DNA from: Convolutriloba macropyga
Taxonomy: Eukaryota
Reading direction: 5' to 3'
DNA length: 64,000 nt
Assembly (NCBI RefSeq): GCF_964194025.1
Contig: NC_134470.1
Span: 39,432,001 to 39,496,000 of the forward strand
Each line of letters opens with the position of its first letter. Position 1 is the stretch's first letter. Shown here one piece after another: positions 47,901-56,900 of this stretch. A program made the position numbers.

Positions 47901-50900
47901 CTTTAACATTGAAAGAGAGCATCTCCTCAACTGTTCCGTCAAGCGAAGTAGACGCATCGCTTCAAGTCAGGTTTGAAGTTAAACGCCCAATTGTGCTAGA
48001 CGCACATCACATTTATTTAAAACTGTTTCTGCTGTAAACCCACTTGAAAACCATCATGGCATCGGTTACCTACGGGTAAAAGTACAGGAACGCTACGCAT
48101 TCCTTGAACAATGTCAATGTTTCTCACTTCGTTCCATCAAGTCAAATTGTGCAGAAAATTCGCTGAGACAACCGTTCAGCCGATCATGGCAGACCTACCA
48201 AATGAGACTCGCTTACCAATCTATTCCTTTGGAAACATGGCGGTTTATTACTTTCGCCCATTTTACGTTGCCATTCTACAGACTAACGAGAAGAGCCTTA
48301 TGAACCATGCAAGCTTTGTGAAAAAGATTTGCCAATCAGAACCGATTTTTATAAAATGCATCTAAATCTTCGGAAAGGCGTGCAAAACTCCGAAAACGTT
48401 CAAATAAAATAATTTTAACACCTACTATTAAATGTAATCGATTGCACTCTTTTTTATTTTAATTTTTCTAGGCTTTGAAAACGTAATCGGTGGCTGATCG
48501 TAGACTAAGACCTGTCCAAAAATAGCTAGATTTGCCTTTTTATCAGTTGCTTTTGGCTTGATAATACTTTGATGAACTGTGGACACGTTTGCTATGGTTA
48601 TTGAAATAAACCGCAGATATACTCTGTTTACAGCTATAATCAAATTTGCTTTGCTTACTTTAATTGGTTGAGTTGAAGGCAAAGATAATTTCTTCTAATT
48701 TTAATAATTGAAGCCAGTAACGAAAATATAATAGAAATTGGTAGAAAAACCGCTTTTTTCCTCTTAGTTTATGTAGGTCTTATTTATAATTGGAATTTCC
48801 TGGCATTTTTTTTCCTGGCATTTGCCAGTTATGTTTTTTGAGTTATGCACATTTAGTTCTAACCTTTACAAAAATTAGGAGGGATTTCTACCTTTGATTG
48901 CGTTTCTTTCTTTGAGTCGGTTATGTTGTGTTATTTTCTAGGCAAGCCGCCTCTTGATCGGGTGTTGATTGAGCTGAATCATCAAAGCGAATTTCCTACT
49001 GGGATGCCGGGGATGAAAGATTTAGGCATCGAGCACCATCACGGGAAGTTGAGCGAAATTGTCCTTGAGTGTCTGAGACCGTATAGACCACACAAGAACT
49101 ATTACGATACAATGGATGAGATCAAACTACCTGAAGCAGTCAATGTTGATGAGTACCTGAAACCCGTGGACAGAATACGCAGTCGGATAGTTGGAGATCT
49201 GGATAAAAGTCTGGTTTAACACTGAACAAAAACAATCGATTTAAATTCTTGAGTAGGCTCTAATAGATGTTCCGATGAAACTGTTTTGGATAGATTTTAA
49301 AGTCAGAGTATTTGTCTCGACTATGCAGAAATCAACGAGAAAGGTGTTGGTTTTGAAGCACAATTAATACCATTTTGAATCAGCGAGAAAAGTCTTTTTT
49401 TGCAACGAGGCTGAGAGTGTTGGACTACAATTCGGCAGTTAAAGGAATTTGTTATTCAGGTTTCAATTTGAGACCTTGTTTTTCACGCTATTGTGATCTT
49501 GCAAGCGTTTTTGAGACTTTAGAGATCAGTTAGCCGAAGGTTCTCGTTTGTCTCAGATAGCAATTGGGACACTGCACATCCAGTATGTTTTGAAAAGAAT
49601 CAAATTGAAGGTATGATGAGTTACTGCTTATTAGGCTTTTTTGCTGCTAGAGAATTTAACCTTTTTAATTGTTCCGACCCCTTTTTGGGGGAGGAACTAT
49701 ATACTCAAATGGGTTTTTTTGTTCAGTCAATTTTGGCCGATCGATATATTCATAGTAGAGAAATATGAGTGGTATCATTAAAAAGCTCGTCCCGCGTAGA
49801 GTTCGGAATCTTTTGAATTTCGTGTTGAATTTCGCAGTCGGATATTTGGAGATCTGGATAAAAGTCTGGTTTAACACTGAACAAAAACAATCTATTTAAA
49901 TTCTTGAGTAGACTCTAATAGATATTCCGATGAAATTGTTTTGGATAGATTTTAAAGTCGTAGATTTTAAAGGGTAGATTTTAGAGTATTTATCTCGACT
50001 GTGCAGAAATCAACGATAAAGTGTTGGTTTTGAAGCACAATTATTACCATTTTGAATCAGCCAGAAAAGTCTAAAAATACTGATATCTGAAATCAGCCAA
50101 TTTTGTGTTGTTTGCCTGAAGATTTTAGAGATTGGTAAATTGCCATTAAGATCATTTTAATTGCAGCTCCAAGTACTTGTTAAAATTTGTTTGCTCTGAA
50201 TTGTATTGAAGCGCTACTGAATTCTAAGAGAATTCGAGACCCCATGATAGGAAGACTATTGCAGTGATTGGAAAATTGTTTTGTCTTCTAGACCTGATAG
50301 ATGAAGCTGCAAAATGAGTGCACAAAACGTGTTTGCTTGGCGGACAAAGTTTAAGAAGATTTTCAAGAGATGTCTTTGCTCCACAAACATGTTGGGCTTC
50401 ATGGCAGCTTTTTTTGCAACGAGGCTGAGAGTGTTGGACTACAATTCGGCAGTTAAAGGAATTTGTTATTCAGGTTTCAATTTGAGACCTTGCTTTTCAC
50501 GCTATTGTGATCTTGCAAGCGTTTTTGAGACTTTAGAGATCAGTTAGCCGAAGGTTCTCGTTTGTCTCAGATAGCAATTGGGACACTGCACATCCAGTAT
50601 GTTTTGAAAAGAATCAAATTGAAGGTATGATGAGTTACTGCTTATTAGGCTTTTTTGCTGCTAGAGAATTTAACCTTTTTAATTGTTCCGACCCCTTTTT
50701 GGGGGAGGAACTATATACTCAAATGGGTTTTTTTGTTCAGTCAATTTTGGCCGATCGATATATTCATAGTAGAGAAATATGAGTGGTATCATTAAAAAGC
50801 TCGTCCCGCGTAGAGTTCGGAATCTTTTGAATTTCGTGTTGAATTTCGCAGTCGGATATTTGGAGATCTGGATAAAAGTCTGGTTTAACACTGAACAAAA

Positions 50901-53900: not shown

Positions 53901-56900
53901 AAACTTATTTTGAACTCTAAGTCAGTCTCACTATTGACAGGACCTCTTCCTTTTTTTGCAACCAAAATTAATCTGGTTAGCGGTTTTATCTTCTATCGTT
54001 TTTAAGGAATCGACCATTTTTTTGTGGCTCCGATTCTGAGTTTTAGTATTTTTTTTTAACTTTGATTTTCTTTTTGAGAATTTATTAAGATTTTGTGGCC
54101 CTATGACATAGATTCGTTGACTAGAATTGCATTAGGCTTCCTGAAGAGCACTAAGCGAACCTATGTAGTAATTTGAGGGGACAGCTAATGGCTGTTAAGA
54201 CTTAAAAAATATTTTTTCGAAAGAAAATTTTTTAACGAAACTTTGATTTACTTTTTGAAAGTTTACTAAATTTTCGGAGTCCTATGGCATAGATTTGTTG
54301 GCTGAAAAAGCAAGAGGCTGCTTAGAGTGCAGTAAGCGAACGACGTAGTAACTTGAGTGGACAGCTAATGGCTGTTAAGAATTAAAAAAAATTACATTAG
54401 CTGTCCTTTCAAGTTACTACGTCGTTCGCTTACTGCTCTCTAAGAAGCCTCTTGCTTTTTCAGCCAACAAGTCTATGCAATAGGACTCCGAAAATTTAGT
54501 AAACTTTCAAAAAGTAAATCAAAATTTCGTTAAAAAATTTTCTTTCGAAAAATTCTTAAGTCTTAACAGCCATTAGCTGTCCCCTCAAAATACTATATAG
54601 GTTCGCTTAATGCTCTTCAGGAAGCCTATTGCAATTCTAGTCAACGAATCTATGTCTGGGCTACAAAATCTTAATAAAATCTCAAAGAAAATCAAAATTT
54701 AAAACAAAACTAAAACTCAGAATCGGAGCCATAAAAAATGGTCGATTCCTGAAAAACGAATTATTTGTTCATTGGGCATTATTTGACTGTAAATGAGGTT
54801 TGTCTTGAACACAAACTGGATTTTAAAAGTGACTAGTCTCCAAGTGAATTGGAAAAAAAAACAATAAAAAACATGAAATGGTTTTTAAAAAATCAGCTCT
54901 CAAATAGAAATCGAATTTTTTTCATAGTAAACGTCCCTATGAGACGAAAACTACCCTTTTTATGGCCTCTCGTCCGTTAGAATCACAAGACTGTTTCATT
55001 TGTAGCAGAAAATGTAATTTTGAATTGATATTTTTTATTAAAAAAAAAGGGAACAAAATCATGCCAAACATCACGTGTTCACGCAAAACTTTAAACCTCG
55101 ATAACTCCTCAAAAAACACGAAATTGAAAAGAGTCCGAACTCTACGCGGGACGAGCTTTTTAATGATACTACTCACAATTCTCTACTATGAATATATCGA
55201 TCGGCCAAAATTGACTGAACAAAAAACCCATTTGAATATATAGTTCCTCCCCCAAAAAGGGGTCGGAACAACTAAAAAGGTTAAATTCTCTAGCAGCAAA
55301 AAAGCCTAATAAGCAGTAACTCATCATACCTTCAATTTGATTCCTTTTCAAAACATACTGGATTTGCAGTGTCCCAATTGCTATCTGAGACAAACGAGAG
55401 CCTTCGGCTAACTGATCTCTAAAATCTCAAAAAAGCTTGCAAGATCACAATAGCGTGAAAAGCAAGGTCTCAAATTGAAACCTGAATAACAAATTTCTTT
55501 AACTGCCGAATTTTAGTCCAACACTCCCTCAGCCTCGTTGCAAAAAAAAGCTGCCATGAAGCCCAACATGTTTTTGGAGCGAAGAATTAAAAAAAAATTT
55601 GAAAATTTTTTTTTTGGCTAATAATCGATAAATTTGTTTTTGTGAATGGTAGGTCAGTCTCAGTAAAGACAAACCCCCCTCCATTTTACTACATCTACAT
55701 TTTTGCGGTTAAATGTCTTTTGGCTCCATGACTTCGATGCCACAAGTTTTCAAAATTTAGAAAAAAAATTTTCGCTAATTTTTTCGTAAATTTGTTTCCT
55801 TTTGAAATCTTATCACATTATCCTAATATTGATTTTTAACATTGGCTAAGAGAAGCCTTTCATTGGATTATAAAGAAAGTTTTCAAAGAAAGCTCATAGT
55901 TTAAATGGCTTCGACAATTTCTTCTCGCACTTTACTGATTTTTTTTGTTTTTGCCTGTATTTGTTGTTGTTTTCATAGTCATCGGACTTTTTGCGATGTT
56001 GTCGTCTTGATGAATTAAAGTTGTCATTGCTGTCTTCCCATTGAGCTTTGAGGCATAATTTAGAATATTTATTGATTTCTGTTGAAAGCAATTGAATTTA
56101 AGGGCTGTTGAGACTTCAAATATAATTTCAAATTTTTTTTGTACATTAAACGATATTTAATTTATTTTCTTGAACTCTAAGTCAGTCTCACTATTGACAG
56201 GACCTCTTCCTTTTTTGCAACCAAAATTAATCTGGTTAGCGGTTTTATCTTCTAACTATTGACTTCAAAACTTGGATGGCACGACTTTTCATAATTTTTT
56301 TTTTAATTTTTGGTTTTTTTTTCATAGTTTTGGATTCTATTGAAATCTTACCATATTGTCCTATTATTTACAGTTCCCATTGGAATAGAGAAGACTTGCC
56401 ATAGATCATAGATCAAGTTTTCAGAGAAAACGGTTAGGTTTGAATGGCTTCGACACTGTCTTCTCTTTTTTTTTCTACTTGTTTTTTGGTTTTTGCCTGC
56501 ATTTGTTTTCATATTCTTACGACTTATTGCGATGAATTATTTTTGATTTAAGAATGACAAAAATTATTGCCTTCTCATAGAAGCGTAACTTATTCTAACT
56601 TATTGTTTATCATTTTCCGTTGAAAGCTATTGAATTTAATGGCTTTGATATTACGGATTTTCTCAAAAATTTCGTGGTTTTAATATTGTGGTTTTTATTT
56701 TTGGTTGTAGGTATATTGTTGTATAATATTGTTGGTTTTTGAAGTCATATTGTTACAAAAACCAATACTATTTTTGTTGAAAAATTATTTGAACCTATAA
56801 AAGTTTTTAATGAAAGTTCATTTTTTAATGGCTTCGACATTTCCGGTTTTTGCCTGTTTTATGTTCTTTGTAGTCATAAAGAGCTTAGAGGTCTCATAAG

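What the first reader, a model, noticed from the sequence alone, without database searches (positions are those of the whole stretch)
49178..56253. Direct plus inverted amplification of the NDUFA9 3' end around a HINE 5' terminus
Seen: the unit [NDUFA9 downstream flank + family-A 5' terminus] occurs three times forward (termini at 49669, 50683, 51697) and twice inverted (about 53012, 55271), with fold-back junctions and a ~52-bp-arm palindrome. The extra forward copies carry the last 14 codons of NDUFA9 (RSRIFGDLDKSLV* versus native RSRIVGDLDKSLV*). Inference: repeated replication restart or template switching focused on a rolling-circle terminus, possibly an intermediate of Helentron host-sequence capture.
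Basis: partly seen in the sequence, partly recalled or inferred. Interest (0 to 1): 0.65.

Follow-up and report, generated by a model that had tools for sequence, protein, structure and literature searches.

The report
Rearranged transposon end beside NDUFA9
Just downstream of an intact NDUFA9 gene, the front part of one old non-autonomous rolling-circle transposon and the host DNA next to it have been duplicated and flipped several times by ordinary copying and repair errors, and the transposon's own end does not appear to have driven this.

Summary
The unit [NDUFA9 downstream flank + family-A 5' end] occurs three times forward (ends at 49669, 50683, 51697) and twice inverted (about 53012, 55271). 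Two extra forward copies carry NDUFA9's last 13 codons plus the stop. A hairpin-forming palindrome is centred at 51946.

Family A has the anatomy of a HINE (non-autonomous Helentron). The whole complex lies inside one element, 49669-58488.

It reduces to seven junction types:
- a fold-back inverted duplication of about 1.25 kb, inserted at one point of the element with a 4-5 nt microhomology;
- a 2.26 kb tandem duplication across the fold-back centre;
- a tandem duplication from codon -13 to element position 158, with a short re-copied stretch at the junction;
- a recent homology-driven third copy (3 transitions in 1014 bp);
- a 335 bp deletion;
- a deletion in the third forward copy (one junction), closed by a small inverted patch (a second junction).

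No breakpoint lies within 150 bp of the transposon terminus. Two other young tandem duplications in the window have the same junction signature.

Template switching is supported. A focus on the rolling-circle terminus is not. Host-sequence capture is only a topological possibility. The older copies differ by substitutions, so a wholesale assembly artefact is unlikely. This is an ordinary kind of event in an unusually dense example.

The parts
42518..43195 (+). NDUFA9 first coding exon (open frame; ATG at 42542)
   Evidence: PDB NDUFA9 chains at E = 7.4e-43. Pfam Epimerase at 1.7e-11.
43371..43691 (+). NDUFA9 middle exon (open frame containing it)
   Evidence: PDB NDUFA9 chains at E = 5.2e-07, aligning to residues about 208-288.
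48942..49219 (+). NDUFA9 last exon, intact, with stop at 49217-49219
   Evidence: Acceptor AG at 48940-48941 and an open frame to TAA. The PDB match to the NDUFA9 C-terminus is only weak (E = 0.36, residues 281-342 of 342). No hit in the protein collection.
49178..49395 (+). Segment A' : native last 13 codons, stop and first 176 bp downstream. This is the source of the two extra A copies.
   Evidence: Matches 49833-50072 and 50847-51086 at 86% including a 23 bp indel, or about 92% over substitutions only.
49396..49668 (+). Segment C, copy 1: host flank immediately upstream of the HINE
   Evidence: No match elsewhere in the window outside 49-56 kb.
49669..49826 (+). HINE (family A) 5' end, copy F1, positions 1-158, with intact subterminal repeat and hairpin
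   Evidence: Alignment A1. Hairpin fold z = -4.0.
49827..49832 (+). Junction J1: a 6 nt insert that re-copies HINE sequence lying 12 nt upstream. It joins HINE position 158 to NDUFA9 codon -13. It is repeated at 50841-50846.
49833..50072 (+). Segment A, extra copy 1 (pseudo-tail of 14 codons at 49833-49874)
50073..50407 (+). Segment B, copy 1: 335 bp absent from the gene-proximal copy. Its last 35 bp are present in both inverted copies.
50408..51421 (+). Second 1014 bp unit [C, HINE 1-158, J1, A (pseudo-tail 50847-50888), B]
   Evidence: 1011 of 1014 positions identical to 49394-50407, with 3 transitions and no indel.
51422..51868 (+). Third forward copy F3: C plus HINE positions 1 to about 171-185. 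Its 5' subterminal repeat is degraded by 4 changes.
   Evidence: 96.1% identical to F1 over 431 bp, with 17 substitutions and 0 indels..
51876..52016 (.). Small palindrome, centre 51946, 5 nt spacer. The left arm is an inverted copy of the start of the adjacent S unit. It replaces HINE positions from about 172 to about 707.
52110..52133 (.). Fold-back centre 1: the 24 nt spacer between the forward S unit and the inverted arm
   Evidence: stem z = -4.4.
52134..53326 (-). Inverted copy I1: HINE 5' 877 bp (52134-53012), C (53014-53288) and the last 35 bp of B (53292-53326)
   Evidence: The HINE part is 97.2% identical to I2.
53327..53995 (+). Forward HINE interior (reference positions from about 755 on), truncated copy. 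Junction J7 at 53326/53327 has AAGA microhomology. Junction J8 at 53995/53996 has no homology.
   Evidence: 98.4% identical to 55586-56254.
53996..54394 (+). Forward arm of the large palindrome (HINE positions 513-877, units S1 and S2) plus the 24 nt spacer 54371-54394
54395..55585 (-). Inverted copy I2: HINE 5' 877 bp with an intact terminus at 55271, C (55273-55547) and the last 35 bp of B (55551-55585)
55586..58488 (+). Remainder of the same HINE: central repeats and 3' module. An unrelated repeat is inserted at 57020-57476.
   Evidence: Collinear with the reference copy 4262-7694 on the minus strand.
58443..58488 (+). HINE 3' end: subterminal repeat 58443-58452 (1 mismatch), 16 nt palindrome 58456-58471, terminus ...CCTTGTT at 58488

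Best explanation
That distance is measured in today's gene-proximal copy, which lacks segment B; if B was lost by deletion as inferred below, the original distance was about 785 bp. Later, its 5' third and the adjacent host DNA went through a series of local rearrangements made by general replication and repair errors. These were not made by transposition.

Inferred order of events:
1. DNA synthesis running through the element left its template about 15-20 nt past the internal S repeats. It folded back, copied about 1.25 kb backwards through the element's 5' terminus and host segment C into segment B, and returned to the original template 15-17 nt upstream of where it had left, using AAGA microhomology. 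The result is an inverted duplication inserted at one point of the element.
2. A 2.26 kb block spanning the fold-back centre was duplicated in tandem through a junction without homology.
3. The block from NDUFA9 codon -13 to element position 158 was duplicated in tandem through a junction with a short re-copied insert.
4. Unequal exchange between the two resulting C + HINE-end copies recently added a third 1014 bp unit.
5. The gene-proximal copy lost the 335 bp segment B. The third forward copy lost element positions from about 172 to about 707 and gained a 68 nt inverted patch.

Once the first palindrome and tandem repeat existed, they probably promoted the later events. NDUFA9 itself is untouched, and the two extra 14-codon tails are dead fragments.

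Shown: the block map, the junction sequences and the divergence values. Inferred: the order of events and the enzymatic pathway.
For: Block map. It was built against the reference copy and against the locus's own modules. Everything between 49669 and 58488 is either family A, in the order of the reference copy, or a copy of host segments A, B or C.

Fold-back and return. The inverted arm begins 24 nt after the forward arm. The inverted block ends at B position 301 and joins the element at about position 755 with AAGA shared by both parents. The forward arm ends 15-17 nt further on. Departure and return are therefore at the same spot of one element.

Junction J1. It carries a 6-8 nt re-copy of nearby donor sequence.

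Other duplications. The two other young tandem duplications in the window carry 9 nt and 17 nt re-copies of the acceptor start at their junctions. That makes 3 of 3. Inserts identical to nearby sequence are described as the hallmark of polymerase-theta end joining, which produces tandem duplications of 1 kb and more in C. elegans (PMC7368036, passages read).

Newest unit. It differs by 3 transitions in 1014 bp. Its boundaries coincide with the start of the 96%-identical C blocks, as expected for unequal homologous exchange.

Real divergence. F1 and F3 differ by 17 substitutions and 0 indels in 431 bp. Forward and inverted copies are 93.7-97.0% identical, and I1 and I2 are 96.1% identical. Each copy has private substitutions. 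Eight substitution columns plus a 2 nt indel unite I1 with I2.

Breakpoints. None of the 14 breakpoint ends is within 150 bp of the HINE 5' terminus.

Age of the family. The other family-A copies in the window are only 67-92% identical to this one. The family therefore looks much older than the rearrangements.
Against: - Direction and type of DNA synthesis cannot be read from the junctions. Synthesis primed at a Rep nick at the terminus would give the same products.
- The fold-back centre shows at most 1 nt of microhomology, so that switch is not independently supported by homology.
- The forward S unit next to centre 1 is a mosaic that is not about 95% identical to its inverted partner (76% complementary). 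The simple model needs an extra conversion or patch there.
- A second tandem duplication in the window also spans a HINE end plus flank. An association with HINEs is therefore not excluded. Only 3 other family copies could be seen.
- No reads were available, so the copy number of the near-identical 1014 bp units is unverified.
Confidence: 0.68

Rival explanations
1. Rolling-circle-triggered rearrangement. A Helentron Rep protein repeatedly nicked the family-A 5' terminus. Repair or replacement synthesis primed from that nick ran into the element and switched templates, giving the tandem and fold-back copies.
For: - All forward switches lie downstream of the terminus, at element positions 158, about 171-185 and about 770.
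- A nascent strand primed at the nick would be continuous with C and B, as the fold-back copy requires.
- Three 5' termini keep an intact subterminal repeat and hairpin.
- A second HINE in the window has a tandem duplication spanning its 3' end and flank.
- HINE-like elements are reported non-randomly at breakpoints of Drosophila gene duplicates (PMC4067079, passages read).
Against: - No breakpoint is at or within 150 bp of the terminus (0 of 14 ends).
- The same junction signature occurs at a tandem duplication not mapped to a HINE terminus.
- The family copies in the window are 8-33% diverged from this one, against 0.3-6% between the duplicated blocks. Family activity at the time of the rearrangements is therefore undocumented.
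- No Rep/helicase gene is in the window. The longest open frame is 645 aa. Of the 10 frames of 130 aa or more, 5 were scanned and none hit Rep or helicase.
Confidence: 0.12
2. Assembly artefact. Chimeric fold-back reads, haplotype copies laid in tandem, or a mis-resolved repeat created some or all of the copies.
For: - The window contains N runs inside another near-identical tandem duplication.
- The two 1014 bp units are 99.7% identical, so their number could be mis-estimated.
- No reads were available.
Against: - The older copies differ by 3-6%, almost entirely by substitutions and not by homopolymer indels (F1 against F3: 17 substitutions, 0 indels).
- Each copy has private changes.
- The junctions are specific non-homologous joins with microhomology or short re-copies, unlike unrolled allelic bubbles.
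- There is no N between 49 and 58.5 kb.
Confidence: 0.08
3. The composite is already a mobile element. It would be a family-A variant that captured the NDUFA9 tail and flank and has transposed. In that case this locus is either the source or one of several copies.
For: - Host segments A, B and C lie between the intact outer 5' terminus (49669) and the 3' terminus (58488), whose subterminal repeat has one mismatch and whose palindrome is intact.
- Helentrons are known to carry host gene fragments (PMC4067079, passages read).
Against: - Outside 49-56 kb the window has no match to A, B or C.
- The gene-proximal copy is continuous with the real last exon, so this is the parental site.
- The inner block boundaries are not element termini.
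- At 8.8 kb the composite is 2.6 times the length of the reference copy.
Confidence: 0.05

Closest known systems
HINE / DINE-1-like non-autonomous Helentrons (Thomas et al. 2014, PMC4067079; Cg_HINE of the Pacific oyster, PMC7492417)
   Same: - 5' subterminal repeat 2 nt from the end, followed by a complementary inverted repeat.
- The same repeat inverted 36 nt from the 3' end, followed by a short palindrome 17 nt from the end.
- T-rich ends and central tandem repeats.
- Known association of such elements with duplication breakpoints.
   Different: - No sequence comparison with named families was possible, because the consensus sequences are in supplements that were closed.
- No autonomous partner was seen.
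- This copy is 8.8 kb long because of internal rearrangement.
Fold-back inverted duplications by replication template switching (two-step ODIRA model, PMC10766183, abstract read; FoSTeS/MMBIR and DUP-TRP/INV-DUP, recalled and not read here)
   Same: - An inverted copy abuts the forward copy with a short spacer.
- A second switch returns to the original template with a few bases of microhomology.
- Further rearrangements cluster at the site.
   Different: - This is an inverted duplication of about 1.25 kb, not a triplication of a large origin-containing segment.
- There is no clear short inverted repeat at the fold-back point.
- The scale is kilobases inside a transposon.
Polymerase-theta end joining tandem duplications with templated insertions (PMC7368036, passages read)
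   Same: Kilobase-scale head-to-tail duplications whose junctions carry short inserts identical to adjacent sequence (3 of 3 young tandem junctions in this window).
   Different: The enzyme cannot be inferred from sequence. Abortive re-priming during replication would leave the same mark.
Helitron gene capture models: end bypass and filler DNA (PMC6544945, passages read)
   Same: Host DNA ends up inside the element, and the joins show microhomology as the filler-DNA model predicts.
   Different: - The host DNA comes from the immediately adjacent 5' flank, together with a second copy of the 5' terminus. It is not from downstream of the 3' end or from a distant locus.
- No transposed copy is known.

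Membership tests
HINE (non-autonomous Helentron) | Subterminal inverted repeat of 11-15 bp, 2-4 nt from the 5' terminus | tested here: met
   A 10 nt repeat starts 2 nt after the shared start TT in 4 independent copies.
HINE (non-autonomous Helentron) | Short inverted repeat complementary to the 5' subterminal repeat a few bases downstream (DINE-1 and Cg_HINE type) | tested here: met
   Hairpin at 49671-49697, -8.0 kcal/mol, z = -4.0, with 1 of 200 shuffles as good. It is conserved in the alignment.
HINE (non-autonomous Helentron) | Matching subterminal repeat about 38-60 bp from the 3' terminus | tested here: met
   The exact reverse complement lies 36 nt from the end in the reference copy and has 1 mismatch at the locus. 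The 20 nt motif is found 4 times in the window against 0 expected in 100 shuffles. The distance is 2 nt below the range given for the mite families.
HINE (non-autonomous Helentron) | Short palindrome 8-35 bp from the 3' terminus | tested here: met
   7 bp arms with a 2 nt loop, ending 17 nt from the terminus, in 2 copies and degenerate in a third. The folding z-scores alone are weak, -2.1 and -0.9.
HINE (non-autonomous Helentron) | Central tandem repeats or a microsatellite | tested here: inconclusive
   Three pairwise matches of a unit of about 280 bp at 77-83% in 5708-6726, with similar matches at 55767-56507. Tandem Repeats Finder did not report them.
HINE (non-autonomous Helentron) | Insertion in T-rich sites without target-site duplication, confirmed by empty sites | not testable with these tools
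   The ends read TTGTT... and ...CCTTGTT, but no empty site is available.
HINE (non-autonomous Helentron) | An autonomous Helentron (Rep/helicase/endonuclease) sharing the termini | not testable with these tools
   None in the window, where the longest open frame is 645 aa. No genome of this organism was at hand.
Template-switch fold-back inverted duplication | Inverted copy adjacent to its source with a short spacer | tested here: met
   24 nt spacer at both centres. Arms of 163 nt at 94-95% (pairs I10 and I11).
Template-switch fold-back inverted duplication | Microhomology at the switch points | tested here: inconclusive
   4-5 nt at the return junction. At most 1 nt at the fold-back point.
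Template-switch fold-back inverted duplication | Return to the original template close to the departure point | tested here: met
   A 15-17 nt overlap between the end of the forward arm and the start of the resumed element.
ODIRA inverted triplication | Interstitial inverted triplication containing a replication origin | tested here: not met
   The inverted block is flanked by one forward source copy and by the continuation of the element, not by a third copy of the same block. An origin is not testable.
Helitron/Helentron gene capture | Host fragment lies between the element's 5' and 3' termini | tested here: met
   Segments A, B and C lie between 49669 and 58488.
Helitron/Helentron gene capture | The element with the fragment has transposed (copies at other loci) | not testable with these tools
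   No copy elsewhere in the 64 kb window. The genome was not available.
Helitron/Helentron gene capture | End bypass: captured DNA derives from downstream of the 3' terminus | tested here: not met
   The host DNA is the upstream 5' flank.
Polymerase-theta-type tandem duplication | Junction insert identical to sequence next to the junction | tested here: met
   6-8 nt at 49827-49832. 9 nt at 16382-16391. 17 nt at 29405-29421.

The most novel reading that the evidence does not exclude
Duplication-first capture on the 5' side. The tandem duplication copied the host flank together with the HINE 5' terminus. This placed 1-2 kb of host DNA, including the last 13 codons and downstream sequence of NDUFA9, between an intact outer 5' terminus (49669 or 50683) and the element's single 3' terminus (58488). 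A Helentron transposase starting at the outer terminus would then mobilise host DNA from upstream of the element. Neither end bypass nor filler DNA describes this route, and it could explain why HINE-like elements sit at breakpoints of gene duplicates. A side possibility is that read-through from NDUFA9 across the 0.5-1.2 kb inverted arms would give double-stranded RNA against this HINE family.
Probability: 0.08. Interest if true: 0.65.

Novelty: new member of a known kind. Interest (0 to 1): 0.3.

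Why it matters
The locus is a compact, fully resolved example of how a transposon with internal repeats becomes a seed for repeated local duplication and inversion next to a housekeeping gene. The junction sequences are preserved well enough to read the mechanism. If the same re-copied junction signature holds genome-wide, it would point to one dominant pathway for kilobase tandem duplications in this organism. If the composite element proved mobile, it would document a route for capturing host DNA from the 5' side of a rolling-circle transposon. 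As it stands, NDUFA9 is unaffected and no new mechanism is required.

Tried and rejected
- Chance: rejected. Matches of 430-2058 bp at 93-100% identity are far beyond chance.
- RNA gene in the amplified flank: Rfam found nothing at gathering threshold in 48000-59000.
- Protein-coding content of B-C or of the inverted copy: Pfam found no family for the frames 50305-50547 and 52767-53129.
- Retro-copy of the mRNA 3' end: rejected, because there is no A-run at junction J1. No AATAAA lies between the stop and 52200. The only ATTAAA sites are at 49777, 50791 and 52120; the first two lie inside the HINE's 5'-end copies and the third in the fold-back centre spacer.
- Independent HINE insertions as the origin of the inverted copies: rejected, because they carry the same host flank C and 35 bp of B.
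- Last exon against the protein collection, longer proteins: 80 candidates, none at E <= 0.001. That exon's NDUFA9 identity therefore rests on its position in the gene and a weak PDB alignment.
- Literature look-up of the 10 nt terminal motif: 114 papers, of which the 10 best-ranked were seen in the listing; those were primer or vector coincidences. The motif is not in the main text of PMC4067079.
- Tandem Repeats Finder did not report the 1014 bp or 2261 bp periods, which exceed its 500 bp limit, nor the HINE central repeats.
- A fully parsimonious history for the S-unit region 51869-52133 was not reached.
- Not attempted: any search of the organism's genome, since none was available and genome contigs holds only bacteria and archaea.

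Full report
**What the window is.**
The window is eukaryotic, about 33% G+C around the finding, and is not human. It has two N runs, at 14940-15076 and 17959-18087, which I left untouched.

On the plus strand lies an NDUFA9 gene. The first coding exon frame, 42518-43195, matches NDUFA9 chains of solved complex I structures at E = 7.4e-43. The frame 43371-43691 matches them at E = 5.2e-07. The last exon, about 48942-49219, aligns only weakly (E = 0.36), but at the correct C-terminal position, residues 281-342 of 342. It found nothing in the large protein collection.

I searched the exons one by one and did not build the joined protein. The intron between 43.7 and 48.9 kb holds a decayed BEL/Pao retrotransposon (Peptidase_A17, E = 2e-12).

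**Check of the observation.**
- A 1014 bp period links 49394, 50408 and 51422. 49394-50840 matches 50408-51854 at 98.7% over 1447 bp.
- The same flank plus transposon end lies inverted at 52843-53326 and 55101-55585, at 93-96% identity.
- An alignment of the five local ends with three other copies in the window (ending at 7694, 1296 and 20842 on the minus strand) fixes the element start at 49669, 50683, 51697, about 53012 and 55271.
- The extra tails at 49833-49874 and 50847-50888 read RSRIFGDLDKSLV*, against the native RSRIVGDLDKSLV* at 49178-49219.
- The palindrome centred at 51946 folds as single-stranded DNA into a stem of about 54 bp (-55.2 kcal/mol, z = -15.6).

Corrections:
- The inverted copies contain the flank but not the coding tail.
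- The extra forward copies contain a 335 bp segment B (50073-50407) that the gene-proximal copy lacks.
- A larger palindrome lies at 53996-54759.
- The structure continues to 58488.

**What family A is.**
The best reference copy is 4262-7694 on the minus strand (3433 bp).
- It starts TTGTTCC. Its 10 nt subterminal repeat begins 2 nt from the end and is followed by a complementary inverted repeat.
- The exact reverse complement of that repeat lies 36 nt from the 3' end. It is followed by a 16 nt palindrome that ends 17 nt from a terminus reading ...CCTTGTT.
- The 3' motif occurs 4 times in the window against none in 100 shuffles.
- Between the ends are diverged repeats of about 280 bp.

These are the features given for HINEs and DINE-1-like elements (PMC4067079 and PMC7492417, passages read). 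I could not compare with named consensus sequences, because they are in supplements that were closed. No autonomous Helentron is in the window.

**Anatomy of the locus.**
I mapped the region twice: against the reference copy and against the locus's own modules. Both give one picture. The same element runs from 49669 to 58488, with its 3' end at 58443-58488. All the complexity sits in its first third.

| Coordinates | Content |
|---|---|
| 49178-49395 | A' (native tail and downstream DNA) |
| 49396-49668 | C |
| 49669-49826 | element 1-158 |
| 49827-49832 | junction J1 |
| 49833-50072 | A |
| 50073-50407 | B |
| 50408-51421 | second 1014 bp unit (C, element 1-158, J1, A, B) |
| 51422-51868 | C and element 1 to about 171-185 |
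| 51876-52016 | small palindrome |
| 51947-52133 | a forward S unit (overlaps the right arm of the small palindrome); the 24 nt spacer is 52110-52133 |
| 52134-53326 | inverted [element 877-1, C, last 35 bp of B] |
| 53327-53995 | element from about 755 onward |
| 53995/53996 | junction J8 |
| 53996-54394 | element 513-877 forward, then the 24 nt spacer |
| 54395-55585 | second inverted block |
| 55586-58488 | rest of the element (unrelated repeat inserted at 57020-57476) |

**Junctions.**
- **J1.** It joins element position 158 to NDUFA9 codon -13 through six bases that re-copy element sequence 12 nt upstream. This creates a match to the acceptor.
- **Return junction (53326/53327 and 55585/55586).** It has AAGA common to both parents.
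- **Fold-back point.** The forward arm runs 15-17 nt beyond the point where the element resumes after the inverted block, and the inverted arm starts 24 nt later. Departure and return are therefore at one spot of one element. This is what two successive template switches predict.
- **J8.** It has no homology.
- **Absence of B.** In the gene-proximal copy this is a clean 335 bp difference with at most 1 nt of overlap. Both inverted copies carry the B-C junction. B is therefore more likely ancestral and later deleted.

**Ages.**
- The two full 1014 bp units differ by 3 transitions and no indel.
- Over the 431 bp shared by all five copies, F1 and F3 are 96.1% identical with 0 indels. Forward and inverted copies are 93.7-97.0% identical. 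I1 and I2 are 96.1% identical.
- Eight substitution columns and a 2 nt indel unite I1 with I2. Each copy has private changes.
- Five columns within alignment columns 205-281 unite F3 with I1, the two arms of the inner palindrome. This suggests arm-to-arm conversion.
- The mosaic of identities means the third unit arose recently, by duplication of [C, element end, A, B]. Copy 1 and copy 2 are alike in C and the element end, while copy 2 and copy 3 are alike in A and B. This is most simply explained by unequal exchange between the two older C blocks.

Substitution-dominated divergence and non-homologous junctions argue against a wholesale assembly artefact. The exact number of near-identical units remains unverified.

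**Is the rolling-circle terminus the focus?**
The seven junction types have 14 breakpoint ends.
- In the element they fall at positions 158, about 171, about 513, about 708-720, about 755, about 771, about 877-895 and about 1721.
- In host DNA they fall at codon -13, the A/C boundary and B position 301.
- None is within 150 bp of the terminus.

Two other young tandem duplications in the window carry the same kind of junction:
- 13523-16381 / 16392-19231: more than 99.6% identical, with a 10 nt insert that re-copies 9 nt of the acceptor start. It spans the 3' end of another family copy plus 1.9 kb of flank and encloses the N runs.
- 28426-29404 / 29415-30394: 99.5% identical, with a 17 nt re-copy.

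Short inserts identical to adjacent sequence are described as the hallmark of polymerase-theta end joining, which makes tandem duplications of 1 kb and more (PMC7368036, passages read). Fold-back junctions by leading/lagging strand switching are described for yeast (PMC10766183, abstract read). DUP-TRP/INV-DUP and FoSTeS/MMBIR are recalled, not read here.

The other family copies are 67-92% identical to this one, so they are much older than the rearrangements. I therefore read the terminus as a passenger. The element's internal repeats, and later the palindromes and tandem copies themselves, are the likely promoters of instability. Synthesis primed from a Rep nick cannot be excluded from sequence alone. 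HINE-like elements are reported at breakpoints of Drosophila gene duplicates (PMC4067079).

**Capture.**
Topologically, host DNA now lies between an intact outer 5' terminus and the 3' terminus. Transposition from 49669 or 50683 would therefore carry it. Neither end bypass nor filler DNA (PMC6544945, passages read) describes that route. There is no evidence that it has happened. Segments A, B and C match nothing else in the window, and the genome could not be searched.

**What remains unexplained.**
The forward S unit next to the first fold-back centre (51947-52133) is a mosaic. Its first half resembles the locus's S2 type. Its middle is closer to the distant reference copy. Its last 45 nt or so are identical to the second centre. 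An extra conversion or patch is needed there.

**Verdict.**
This is a real, dense cluster of local duplications and inversions inside and beside one old HINE downstream of an intact NDUFA9. It is best explained by template switching or end joining plus unequal exchange. It is a new example of a known kind of event and of modest interest.

Noticed in passing
window 13523-19231: A 2869 bp tandem duplication (13523-14939 = 16392-17804 and 15238-16381 = 18088-19231, each with one substitution). Its junction insert re-copies 9 nt of the acceptor start. Each unit contains an N run inside a minisatellite-like stretch. The unit spans the 3' end (18257, duplicated at 15407) of another family-A HINE plus 1.9 kb of flank.
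   Followed up: partly
window 28426-30394 (older relative at 31193-32179): A tandem duplication of about 980 bp at 99.5% identity, with a 17 nt re-copy of the acceptor start at the junction. A copy at about 70% identity lies 1.8 kb downstream. It sits in the region of the SAC3/GANP-family gene, and the nature of the unit is unknown.
   Followed up: partly
window 4262-7694 (-), 18257-20842 (-), up to 1296 (-): Three further family-A HINE copies. The first is full length (3433 bp). The other two share only about the first 200 bp and the 3' end motif with it, so they may be different subfamilies with the same ends.
   Followed up: partly
window about 44000-48400: A decayed BEL/Pao LTR retrotransposon in the last NDUFA9 intron (Pao peptidase domain in frame 46986-47375, many stops). 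LTR-like 500 bp repeats at 26242-26737 and 27445-27938 are 76% similar to 45060-45477.
   Followed up: no
window 21813-36799 (+): Upstream neighbour gene with a SAC3/GANP domain (frame 36359-36799, E = 4.9e-14) and a 645 aa G+C-rich open frame at 22472-24409.
   Followed up: no
window 49777 and 50791: The only poly(A)-signal-like hexamers (ATTAAA) in the 2.9 kb after the NDUFA9 stop that precede the palindromes lie inside the HINE 5' end copies. The gene's 3' end may therefore be formed within the transposon.
   Followed up: no
window 51697-51730 and 52985-53012: The 5' subterminal repeat and hairpin are hit by clustered changes in copies F3 and I1 (4 or more changes in about 12 nt) but are intact in F1, F2 and I2. 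The cause is unknown.
   Followed up: no
window 57020-57476, 32906-33934, 35699-36153, 25835-26262: Another interspersed repeat family (80-91% identity). One copy is inserted into the 3' half of the rearranged HINE.
   Followed up: no
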